Source: Lingula anatina
Lineage: Eukaryota > Animalia > Brachiopoda
Length of the DNA stretch: 64,000 nt
Reading direction: 5' to 3'
NCBI GenBank assembly: GCA_051362555.1
Contig: CM120640.1
Coordinates: 15,934,001 to 15,998,000, forward strand
This document shows, one piece after another, positions 42,301-45,300 of this stretch. A program made the position numbers and the translations under genes. Below the pieces are notes generated by a model. That model was not told where the DNA came from, made no database searches, and was given only the letters and a program-made list of their open reading frames with translations. The stretch's first letter is position 1. Each line of letters begins with the position of its first letter.

Positions 42301-45300
42301 TCTGAGAGCACACTGTAAAATATTCAGCAATGATTGTGTCTGTCATTGTTATGGCATTGCAGGGGGAGTTATAGATTTGTGTATTAGGTAAATGATTCAT
42401 AAATTGCCTCCCTTCAGATATATGTAGGTCTGCCAAGAGATTTTTTTGGTAATTATTAATGGTGTGCGTCAGGTTATTACCCAATAAGGTAGCAACCTGG
42501 GAATCGAGGCTTGTGAGATGAATATAAAAGCAGTAGTTAGCAGACATGGAAGGAAGGCTGGACCAGCTATATTGAACTGTTACATTGTTTACATTTTCTT
42601 AAGTGCTTGTGCCCAAGGGGCCTTGCTGTTTAAGCAGTGTTATAATATCATATGTGGGTTTTTTTTTTCTTCAGCCATCATTAAGTTCCACTCTATTGTT
42701 ATGCCCATGAGGCAGTTGTTAAGTCAAAGACATTTGTCAGTAAAAAAAAAAAAAAAGAAATGGCCTAAAGATGCAATATGATTATGCTCATCATGTAGTT
42801 CCCAGTGATAATTGTTGACCGTAATAACAAAAAGGGTATGTTTAACTGTAGAAATTTGGCAGTGGCTGGTATTTAGTCGGGTGTTTTGGTCATGCACTAC
42901 AATGGGAAACTGCTTAGGAAAAGGAAGACGGACAGAACGCCCAGAACCAGTTGTAGTTTCAGTATCAGACACTGGGGTGGACTTGGTAACAGTGAGTGGA
43001 AAAAAATCTTTGGTTGCCTTTGTGATTTTCATATACTGGTACTTAGCCTGAGTAGCAGACCCAATGAGGGCCACCTTTGTGATCTCTTTTTCTATGTGCA
43101 TTGGCTATTCACCTTGCTCGTGTGGGAGCATGTGAGAATTATGAAACTGGCACACATTTAAAATGTAGCCCAAGTTGTAGGGCACTCTTTTTGGGTAGGG
43201 AATTTAATGATAATATAAAACATCTGACTGTGAATGGACACTCAGCCTGTTTAACACATTAGATTGTATTTAATGATAAAGAAATGGATATGGCTCTGTC
43301 ACACCAGCATATTGAACCATTAAGTTGTTGTAGATTAAGTATCCTGATGATCTCATATCCTAGCATGAGTCATACAGGACAGTTGTTGAGGTCTAATTGA
43401 CATCTGTGCAATAAATCCAATACTATTTAAACTGCTTTCACAGCAAATGCCAGGGAACACCTGGAAAAACCTTTGGAAAAAAAGTTTCAAAACAACCAAA
43501 TGTGTTTTGGGTTTTGATGGGTGGGGGGGAACTTGAAGATGAGATACAGACATGTTTGATGTTGTTTGAATTGTGACACAGTCAGATTCATTTAATTATT
43601 GACCAAAATCTCATATCAGCTGCCCTTGGGATTTTTTTCCCCACAAAATGTGCTGTTGCTCAACTAACACATTTATTGAGTTGTTTAGCAGTTAAGCTCT
43701 TTGATAGATTAACCACAATATCTTGTTTGTGCTCGATAAGGCTTTAGTCTTTGTGTAATGTGTTTTTATTTAACATCATATTATGCTAACCAAGGAAAAT
43801 GATGAAGAGTCAAATGAGGGCATCACTGGGGAGGATCAGGACGAGGCAGAGGACAATGATGAGGGTGAGGTGCAAAACAAGGAAGAGGAGGAGGACGAAG
43901 AAGAGGAAGAAGAAGAAGAGAGTGAGGGTCTAATTGACTTTGAGAATTTAGACAGTGATGATGTAATCAATGTGAAAGATGCAGAAAATGAGGAGTTTGG
44001 TTCTGAGAGCCAGTTTGAGTTAGATTTAGATATCAGTGAGGACTTGGACAACATTGAGAGTGGAAGTGACAGCTTCACTCAGTACAGTGAAGAGCAGCCA
44101 GTGGGACCACCGCTGCCTAAGCAGAAGCAGCGACCAGCCAAGATTGACACTAAAAGGCCAGTGGTCAGTAGACCAGCCAGAGTTGGTGCCAGACAGGTCA
44201 GAAAGGTAGTTGGAATCCAGTCAATGTAGTAGTAGCTTTTTCAGAGATTTTAGATGAAACATTTTTATATTTTGCATAAGAATGTTAGATATAATGTGCT
44301 ACTGTGAGTTGCCCTCTTTGGTTTTGTATTATAGATATGGATTTTATTTGCAGACATGTAATACATTTAGCATGTATGTGTATTGCATCATGTTCAATGA
44401 TTTTGAAATGGAACTCAATAGTTAGCTTTTGTCAAAGCATGACCATATGTCCCATTATGTCATTGTGTCTTTAGAATTTTTGAAATCTTCTTTCTTGATT
44501 TGAGCTTAGGTAAAAAAATGTATGCTGTGTAACTTGGTGGTTTTTGATATTGCATTCAGCAGTGTTGTGTCACTCGAGTTCATCTTTGCATACATCATGG
44601 TGATCACTGCAACTTGCTTTCTGTCTACACTGCAGAAAGGTTTAATATGGGGGAAAATCACAAAAATGGTTTTCAGTTTTATTGGTGACAAAGCAAATCA
44701 AAACAAACATTTTATAGTTGTTTCTTTAATGGATTTGTTTCATATAATATGTTTGGTTCATTGCTATAGCATGGACACCTGCTTACTATTATTTGCTTAT
44801 AAGTGGAAGTTCACTATTCAGAATTATAAATATTGTGATTTTACATGTAGTGATTTTCAAGTGTTTGGTATTGTTCAGGTGCACAGAAAATTGCATGAAC
44901 CGTGCATTGGTATCACACTTGTCAAATTTCATTTTTAGTAATGTTAATATTTTGTTGCTTTAATCTGGTATAAGCAGGACATTTTATTGATTTTGTATGA
45001 TTTTGTGGGATTGGGTTACTCTCATAATACAATGCAGACCAATATTTTTAGTGTCATTATTGGGGCTAGCCATTTTTTCCCTGAGCAGATTTTTAGAAAG
45101 GAAGGTTTATCAGTGAACATTTAGTTTTCACAGTTTTTGTGCCAAACAAGGTTCATTTTGTTGGGATGCTATACTTTACTTGGAATATCACCATTTACCA
45201 TATAGTTGTATGCATATGTTGCTTCTTTTTTTTTTATTTTTTTTCACTTTTGACAAATTTTACTGTAAGGTTCTCAGTAAGATGGGGAAAGCAATCTCTG

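What the first reader, a model, noticed from the sequence alone, without database searches (positions are those of the whole stretch)
42902..44205. Candidate lipid-anchored kinesin-13 isoform: alternative first exon MGNCLGKG spliced to a hyper-acidic exon
Seen: inside intron 3 of the KIF2-like gene there is an ATG in strong context, 30 codons and a consensus GTGAGT donor, followed by an in-phase 137-codon acidic exon that can join the linker-neck-motor exons without frameshift. Established: M-G-x-C starts are typical N-myristoylation plus S-palmitoylation signals that target proteins to plasma or ciliary membranes; kinesin-13s are soluble microtubule depolymerases whose N-terminal domain directs localisation. 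Inference: an internal promoter replaces the normal targeting domain with a membrane anchor and a long disordered spacer, giving a membrane-tethered depolymerase. I do not know of this being described, but cannot search.
Basis: partly seen in the sequence, partly recalled or inferred. Interest (0 to 1): 0.85.

Follow-up and report, generated by a model that had tools for sequence, protein, structure and literature searches.

The report
Acidic optional exon in brachiopod kinesin-13
The brachiopod gene for the microtubule-shortening motor KIF2 has an optional exon that adds a long acidic spacer, matched in position by shorter ones in molluscs and ribbon worms and likely tuning the motor's grip on microtubules, while the proposed fat-anchor first exon upstream of it looks gene-like but was not seen spliced in RNA reads.

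Summary
The window holds the KIF2 (kinesin-13) gene of Lingula anatina. All sequence features are there as described. The acidic exon 43795-44205 is real, but reads join it to canonical exon 3 (4 reads) and to 45512 (12 reads): it is an in-frame cassette (707 vs 844 aa) that keeps the N-terminal domain; 7 of 9 read variants in it are synonymous. A shorter acidic-then-basic insert sits at the same place in 14 of 15 spiralian isoform pairs compared. The MGNC exon is unproven: no 42991->43795 joint was listed in 6 runs (few reads; the table also missed true joints), reads cross its donor unspliced, and 0 of 214 relatives start MG-x-C. For it: the full signal arose in 2 of 3000 shuffles, no variants were listed there, and unrelated MG-starting internal N-termini occur in a Littorina KIF2 model and four arthropod-like loci. 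Odds of the lipid-anchored isoform about 0.35. The scan had no earlier KIF2 note; it noted an analogous design in LARP4B.

The parts
39304..39367 (+). KIF2 coding exon 1 (start of the N-terminal barrel domain)
   Evidence: tblastn of RefSeq KIF2A X2; joint 39366->40544 in 4 of 4 runs
40545..40639 (+). KIF2 exon 2 (N-terminal domain, PF22923)
41112..41207 (+). KIF2 exon 3, ends in phase 0; spliced to the acidic exon or directly to 45512
   Evidence: loose ends before 43794 are the end of this exon, 4 reads in X1; skipping form in RefSeq proteins P0004/P0005
41741..42286 (.). inverted-repeat element (arms 108 nt, 97% complementary), multi-copy; sense coverage of intron 3 starts just after it
   Evidence: mixed-strand, many-variant coverage
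42892..42894 (+). out-of-frame upstream ATG, 10 bases before the candidate start
   Evidence: its frame would run 35 codons after the proposed splice
42902..42991 (+). candidate alternative first coding exon, 30 codons, MGNCLGK..., predicted myristoylation/palmitoylation signal; unconfirmed
   Evidence: no joint to 43795 listed
42992..42997 (+). consensus donor GTGAGT in phase 0; crossed by unspliced reads
   Evidence: 8 reads cover 43004 in four runs
43783..43794 (+). in-frame ATG (MLTK) just upstream of the acceptor; start of RefSeq model XP_013399866.1
   Evidence: coverage steps up from about 43668 in X1-X3
43795..44205 (+). acidic cassette exon, 137 codons, first 100 residues net -46, last 37 net +10
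   Evidence: both junctions in reads; 7 of 9 variants synonymous; 100% match in P0003; charge
45512..45572 (+). linker exon that follows either exon 3 or the acidic exon
   Evidence: loose ends behind 44205, 8 reads in X1 and 4 in X8; P0003, P0005
45938..54542 (+). remaining KIF2 exons: linker, basic neck, motor (KVD 50132, P-loop 50546, KEC 52450) and tail
   Evidence: joint 46091->46319

Best explanation
The stretch 43795-44205 is an in-frame optional (cassette) exon of the Lingula KIF2 mRNA, spliced from exon 3 and onto the exon at 45512, that puts 137 mostly acidic residues between the N-terminal barrel and the basic neck, where it likely acts as a floppy negatively charged spacer that weakens or gates the neck's electrostatic grip on tubulin tails in certain tissues. 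Shown: both junctions, the frame, selection on the protein frame, a skipped 707-aa form, uneven use between samples, and an acidic-then-basic insert at the same position in molluscs and a nemertean. Inferred: disorder, the charge-screening mechanism (the acidic run would compete with tubulin C-terminal tails for the lysine/arginine-rich neck and the positively charged pocket of the N-terminal barrel), and tissue specificity. The MGNC exon is treated as an unconfirmed extra entry into this exon, not as its normal partner.
For:: 4 X1 reads run from exon 3 into 43795, 8 X1 and 4 X8 reads run from 44205 into 45512; 7 of 9 listed variants synonymous (P 2e-4 against all changes, 0.011 against transitions only). 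RefSeq P0004/P0005 join exon 3 directly to 45512; no depth over 43869-44370 in X4 and X7 while exons 1-3 are covered; 14 of 15 isoform pairs show a 32-69 aa insert starting 24-30 residues after the start of exon 3 (Lingula 32), N-half net -4 to -16, C-half -2 to +6. Same kind of exon in unnamed annelid-like and bivalve-like loci L001, L056, L063, L065, L066. Neck charge is needed for depolymerisation and is proposed to bind tubulin tails (PMC2173087, abstract read); the N-terminal barrel has a positively charged phosphopeptide pocket (PMC12153341, passages read); a 20-aa linker splice changes mouse KIF2A function and interactome (10.1101/2020.05.07.081216, passages read).
Against: No activity or binding data. 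The pairs were picked by me for differing in length; no long acidic form appeared among the retrieved models of oysters, mussels, scallops, Owenia, Capitella or Tubulanus, and the inserts share charge pattern and position, not alignable sequence. The exon 3 -> 43795 join was seen in only 1 of 4 runs; in X2 and X3 most reads at the acceptor are unspliced or start just upstream (17 reads at 43796 in X3, no loose end listed), so a good share of acidic-exon RNA may come from intron-retaining or internally started transcripts. The full-length 844-aa protein was not found in the database.
Confidence: 0.55

Rival explanations
1. One reading: an internal promoter in intron 3 makes a 789-aa isoform in which MGNCLGK... 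(myristate on Gly2, palmitate on Cys4, basic residues behind) replaces the N-terminal barrel, and the acidic exon serves as a long tether, giving a membrane-bound depolymerase. It would coexist with the cassette use.
For: Signal rare in shuffles (2 of 3000 strict, 1.7% loose). GC 0.478 like the coding exons, reached by 0.4% of 90-base intron windows. No variant listed in 42693-43003 against 7.4 expected (P 0.0006, bounds chosen afterwards; 0.12 for the exon alone; 4 rows hidden). Sense coverage of intron 3 begins after 42290 and is near zero in 41359-41609 and in introns 1-2. Analogous models: Littorina X1 (P0217) has a unique 218-aa acidic N-terminus starting MGSGNSS, no PF22923; Mya X9 (P0171) starts MGISPSEC before the acidic insert; four arthropod-like loci keep an invariant MGVAW start with synonymous changes and an acidic patch in the same intron, with phase-0 donors available.
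Against: Joint not listed in 6 of 6 runs laid; all 4 loose-end reads at the acceptor come from exon 3; 8 reads cover 43004, beyond the donor. 0 of 214 retrieved proteins start MG-x(0-3)-C. No homologue of the peptide among 1.84 billion representatives (3 hits, all RCC1-like repeats). No such exon upstream of the acidic exon in L056, L065, L066/L067. The Littorina N-terminus is not homologous (E 0.14) and MGVAWF does not fit the myristoylation pattern. 17 upstream ATGs in 42290-42901, one overlapping.
Confidence: 0.35
2. The MGNC frame is a chance ORF (or a non-coding regulatory element) in an intron that is slowly spliced; the reads over it are retained-intron pre-mRNA, partly captured by the A-run at about 42742-42757.
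For: Both introns flanking the cassette are covered by sense reads in X1-X3, including 44206-45440 whose donor is known to be used; no junction; no homologue; a window of 64 kb offers many chances for a pattern chosen afterwards (MG + pattern + Cys alone occurs in 13.6% of intron shuffles).
Against: The joint occurrence of start context, lipid motif, basic patch, coding-like GC, perfect in-phase donor and lack of variants is hard to get by chance.
Confidence: 0.5
3. A second start near 43650-43750 makes the acidic exon the first exon, translated from ATG 43783 (MLTK...), giving a 763-aa soluble isoform without barrel and without lipid anchor.
For: RefSeq XP_013399866.1 begins this way; summed depth in X1-X3 rises from about 1 in 43562-43667 to 21 in 43668-43773; A at -3 of the ATG.
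Against: The RefSeq model is truncated at its other end too (runs into the intron after the neck exon); the coverage gap upstream could be allele divergence; no start cluster listed (table 6).
Confidence: 0.3
4. The acidic exon works as a docking or phosphorylation platform (acidic kinase sites, a dileucine-type motif ESEGLI) rather than as a charge shield.
For: One [DE]xxxL[LI] match at residues 42-47; alternative linker segments change the interactome of mouse KIF2A (10.1101/2020.05.07.081216, passages).
Against: No motif is shared by eye across the spiralian inserts; the dileucine pattern is short and chance-prone.
Confidence: 0.25

Closest known systems
KIF2A / kinesin-13 (Lingula RefSeq 'KIF2A isoform X2', P0005, 707 aa; XP_013399866.1, P0003)
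   Same: Same gene: barrel, linker, neck, central motor with KVD and KEC, tail. XP_013399866.1 already holds the acidic exon joined at 44205.
   Different: The exon 3 + acidic exon form (844 aa) and the MGNC form (789 aa) were not found in the database searches.
Mouse Kif2a splice isoforms (Akkaya et al., 10.1101/2020.05.07.081216; passages read; conservation in PMC10952736, passages read)
   Same: Alternative splicing of a disordered segment outside the motor, with effects on function and partners.
   Different: There 20 aa of exon 5 and a serine-rich exon 18; here a 137-aa acidic cassette right after exon 3.
Membrane-recruited kinesin-13: Arabidopsis kinesin-13A via ROP11/MIDD1 (PMC4143617, passages read); KIF2C with myristoylated CCDC69 (PMC11621681, passages read); lysosome-associated KIF2beta (as cited in review PMC4071412; the 1998 paper itself not read)
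   Same: A kinesin-13 acting at or carried on a membrane, which is what the MGNC isoform would do.
   Different: In the first two the anchor is a separate adaptor protein and for KIF2beta the review lists the anchor as unknown; none is described there as a lipid signal on the motor's own N-terminus.
N-myristoyl + S-palmitoyl N-termini (Src-family SH4, G-alpha, LAMTOR1; recalled)
   Same: MG start, allowed residues at 3, 6 and 7, Cys at 4, basic residues behind.
   Different: Use of this Met as a real start in a spliced mRNA is not shown.

Membership tests
Kinesin-13 / KIF2A | Central kinesin motor domain | tested here: met
   PF00225 at 235-559 of 707 aa; exons mapped in the window
Kinesin-13 / KIF2A | KVD finger and KEC motif (motif names recalled) | tested here: met
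   window 50132 and 52450
Kinesin-13 / KIF2A | Basic neck before the motor and N-terminal barrel PF22923 | tested here: met
   neck start RRKSNCV at residue 160; PF22923 at 7-59
Kinesin-13 / KIF2A | Microtubule depolymerase activity | not testable with these tools
   needs an assay
Coding cassette exon | Upstream and downstream junctions in RNA | tested here: met
   4 reads exon 3 -> 43795 (1 of 4 runs); 12 reads 44205 -> 45512 (2 of 4 runs)
Coding cassette exon | A skipped form exists and the frame is kept | tested here: met
   P0004/P0005 skip it; 411 bases, phase 0/0; the skipping junction itself was not listed in my reads (its acceptor lies in a repeat that the tool skips)
Coding cassette exon | Selection on the reading frame | tested here: met
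   7 of 9 variants synonymous
N-myristoylated, S-palmitoylated isoform | Gly2 in a myristoylation pattern with a nearby Cys (PROSITE-type pattern, recalled) | tested here: met
N-myristoylated, S-palmitoylated isoform | The Met is a true start of an mRNA spliced to the motor exons | tested here: inconclusive
   joint not listed in 6 of 6 runs, threshold 3 reads a run, 6-26% of each run read, and one search also failed to list true joints
N-myristoylated, S-palmitoylated isoform | G2/C4 conserved in relatives | tested here: not met
   0 of 214 proteins start MG-x(0-3)-C; no homologue of the peptide; no other brachiopod sequence was available
N-myristoylated, S-palmitoylated isoform | Lipid attachment and membrane localisation | not testable with these tools
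   needs labelling or imaging

The most novel reading that the evidence does not exclude
Intron 3 of bilaterian KIF2 repeatedly gives rise to internal first exons that swap the phosphopeptide-binding barrel for an MG-starting lipid anchor plus a long acidic tether (Lingula MGNCLG, Littorina MGSGNS, arthropod-like MGVAWF), so that animals make a kinesin-13 that is itself fixed to a membrane and trims microtubules at the cortex, cilium or organelles without an adaptor.
Probability: 0.33. Interest if true: 0.78.

Novelty: new variant of a known kind. Interest (0 to 1): 0.45.

Why it matters
The shown part adds a splice-controlled acidic module, kept in position across brachiopods, molluscs, nemerteans and annelid-like loci, to a motor whose activity depends on a basic neck; it offers a direct test of charge gating in kinesin-13. 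If the MG-starting isoforms are real, they would be kinesin-13s with their own lipid anchor; the membrane-linked cases I read about use adaptor proteins or an unknown anchor, and my four literature searches on this listed no such isoform.

Tried and rejected
No whole genome is held for this window, so copy number and repeats could not be checked. No indexed RNA holder was listed; six raw-read runs were laid instead. One search's joint table listed neither exon 2 -> exon 3 nor exon 3 -> 43795 although one search shows the latter, so a missing joint is weak evidence. Search of the 30-aa peptide against cluster representatives gave 3 hits, all repeat proteins unrelated to kinesin. The unspliced 49-aa ORF from 42902 is not in the collection. 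An MGDCLW ORF upstream of the acidic exon in L066/L067 was rejected: Asp3 breaks the pattern, weak start context, and it is outside the blocks shared with the related locus L056. The donor after 44196 was rejected (GT lost in reads). Littorina X1 versus the Lingula acidic exon: no homology. A bacterial promoter scan is not meaningful for an animal gene and was ignored. Earlier-findings look-ups by sequence gave nothing. No fold or complex was predicted: the parts in question are low-complexity. Supplements were not read; none is expected to bear on the claims.

Full report
What the locus is. The acidic exon matched one database protein at 100%, 'kinesin-like protein KIF2A [Lingula anatina]' (P0003, XP_013399866.1), and the 707-aa RefSeq isoform X2 (P0005) maps exon by exon to 39304-54542. 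It has the N-terminal barrel PF22923, a central motor, and KVD and KEC motifs. The gene is the brachiopod KIF2 kinesin-13.

The observation. ATG 42902 (A at -3, G at +4), 30 codons and GTGAGT in phase 0 are present, as are the acceptor at 43794 and 137 open codons to 44205. In 3000 dinucleotide shuffles of intron 3 the full signal appeared twice; a looser version in 1.7%, and an MG start with pattern and Cys alone in 13.6% (criteria set after seeing the site; the myristoylation pattern is recalled from PROSITE). The 90 bases have coding-like GC (0.478 against an intron mean of 0.345). There are 17 ATGs in 42290-42901, one out of frame at 42892, and an in-frame ATG at 43783 (my note 2 gave 43786 by mistake).

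RNA. Six of nine listed runs with the same species label were laid, 6% to 26% of each. In one search (X1, X2, X3, X8) four X1 reads enter 43795 from the end of canonical exon 3, and eight X1 and four X8 reads leave 44205 for 45512. Seven of nine variants listed in the exon are synonymous (P 2e-4 to 0.011), and one of the other two removes the GT after 44196. RefSeq P0004/P0005 skip the exon, and X4 and X7 have no depth on it although exons 1-3 are covered. So it is a coding cassette exon, giving 844 versus 707 aa, used unevenly between samples (tissues not known to me).

The 42991->43795 joint was listed in none of the six runs (threshold three reads a run). X4 and X7 have no depth there; in X1, X2, X3 and X8 depth is about 1-9 and eight reads cover 43004, past the donor. 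This is weak evidence: one search also failed to list exon 2 -> exon 3 and exon 3 -> 43795, and both introns beside the cassette are covered by unspliced sense reads in X1-X3, including the one whose donor is used. Two things lean the other way: sense coverage in intron 3 starts after the inverted-repeat element at 41741-42286 and is near zero before it and in introns 1 and 2, and no variant is listed in 42693-43003 where 7.4 are expected (P 0.0006 with bounds chosen afterwards, 0.12 for the exon alone, and four rows of the table were hidden). Coverage also steps up at about 43668, which fits the RefSeq model starting at ATG 43783 or simple intron retention.

Relatives. From 120 listed homologues and members of 19 clusters, I compared 15 long/short pairs picked for differing length; 14 show a 32-69 aa insert beginning 24-30 residues after the start of exon 3, acidic in its first half and mostly basic in its second (Lineus, Pomacea, Gigantopelta, Patella, two Octopus, a cuttlefish pair, Ruditapes, Dreissena, Mya, Littorina, Aplysia, Biomphalaria, and a cross-species Haliotis pair; Argopecten showed none). 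No such long form was among the retrieved models for oysters, mussels, scallops, Owenia, Capitella or Tubulanus. Unnamed loci L001, L056, L063, L065 and L066/L067 carry the same kind of exon after exon 3. The Lingula exon is the longest and most acidic (net -36). The inserts share place and charge pattern, not sequence.

For the MG exon, 0 of 214 retrieved proteins with the P-loop start MG-x(0-3)-C and 3 of 214 fit the myristoylation pattern. One is Littorina saxatilis isoform X1 (P0217): a unique 218-aa, 21% D/E N-terminus starting MGSGNSS, lacking PF22923 and joined to the linker, not homologous to the Lingula exon. One is Mya X9 (MGISPSEC..., resembling a variant exon 3, followed by the acidic insert). 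The third is an unnamed double-motor protein. Four genomic loci that I read as arthropod-like (label from my own recognition) keep an ORF starting with invariant MGVAW, with synonymous codon changes, a second conserved acidic motif and phase-0 GT sites, between exon 3 and the linker exon; its start does not fit the pattern at position 6 and I have no RNA for it. Of 17 loci scanned, the three independent ones that span exon 3 to the acidic exon (L056, L065, L066/L067) had no pattern-fitting MG exon with a donor there; L063 was not scanned. The 30-aa peptide has no homologue among 1.84 billion representatives. No other brachiopod or phoronid sequence was retrieved, so conservation in close kin is untested.

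Mechanism. Shown: an optional acidic-then-basic segment between barrel and neck. Known: positive charge in the MCAK neck is needed for depolymerisation and is proposed to bind tubulin tails (PMC2173087, abstract); the barrel binds phosphopeptides through a positively charged pocket (PMC12153341, passages); a small linker splice alters mouse KIF2A function (10.1101/2020.05.07.081216, passages). Inferred: the Glu/Asp run competes for these basic surfaces and lengthens the link to the targeting domain, damping or gating the motor in some tissues (0.55). If the MGNC exon is used, myristate, palmitate and basic residues would hold the motor at a membrane on that same spacer (0.35). Membrane-linked kinesin-13s in the papers I read use adaptors (MIDD1/ROP11, PMC4143617; myristoylated CCDC69 with KIF2C, PMC11621681; passages) or an anchor listed as unknown (KIF2beta in review PMC4071412, passages). 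Searches listed no kinesin-13 with its own lipid signal (listings seen; the library lacks most subscription papers).

Verdict. New variant of a known kind; interest 0.45.

Noticed in passing
L034:2537, L036:8142, L046:1939, L049:9203: Conserved ORF starting MGVAW with a second motif VDVxDIE..D....F..FF between exon 3 and the linker exon of arthropod-like KIF2 loci; looks like an unannotated alternative first exon.
   Followed up: partly
P0217 (Littorina saxatilis XP_070195313.1), residues 1-218: RefSeq KIF2A isoform with a unique acidic N-terminus and a textbook myristoylation start, lacking the barrel domain.
   Followed up: partly
window 41741-42286: Inverted-repeat, multi-copy element (MITE-like by my reading) in intron 3, just upstream of where intronic sense coverage begins; could supply a promoter.
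   Followed up: partly
window 30100-38700, minus strand: An intron-rich gene that I recognise from its ORFs as DNA ligase IV lies head to head with KIF2, about 600 bases apart (name recalled, not from a call).
   Followed up: no
window 59595-59774, minus strand: C-terminal exon resembling cystathionine gamma-lyase downstream of KIF2 (recalled); a Pomacea cluster links KIF2A and cystathionine gamma-lyase models on one contig, suggesting kept gene order.
   Followed up: no
window 57508-58536, minus strand: Broken Tc1/mariner-like transposase frames (recognised from ORFs, not tested).
   Followed up: no
P0027, P0085 (unnamed JGI proteins): Kinesin-13-like proteins with two motor domains whose predicted starts are MGNSIG and MGNASK, the first fitting the myristoylation pattern.
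   Followed up: no
window 46540-46650: Very highly covered multi-copy repeat in the intron after the neck exon, where RefSeq model XP_013399866.1 ends early.
   Followed up: no
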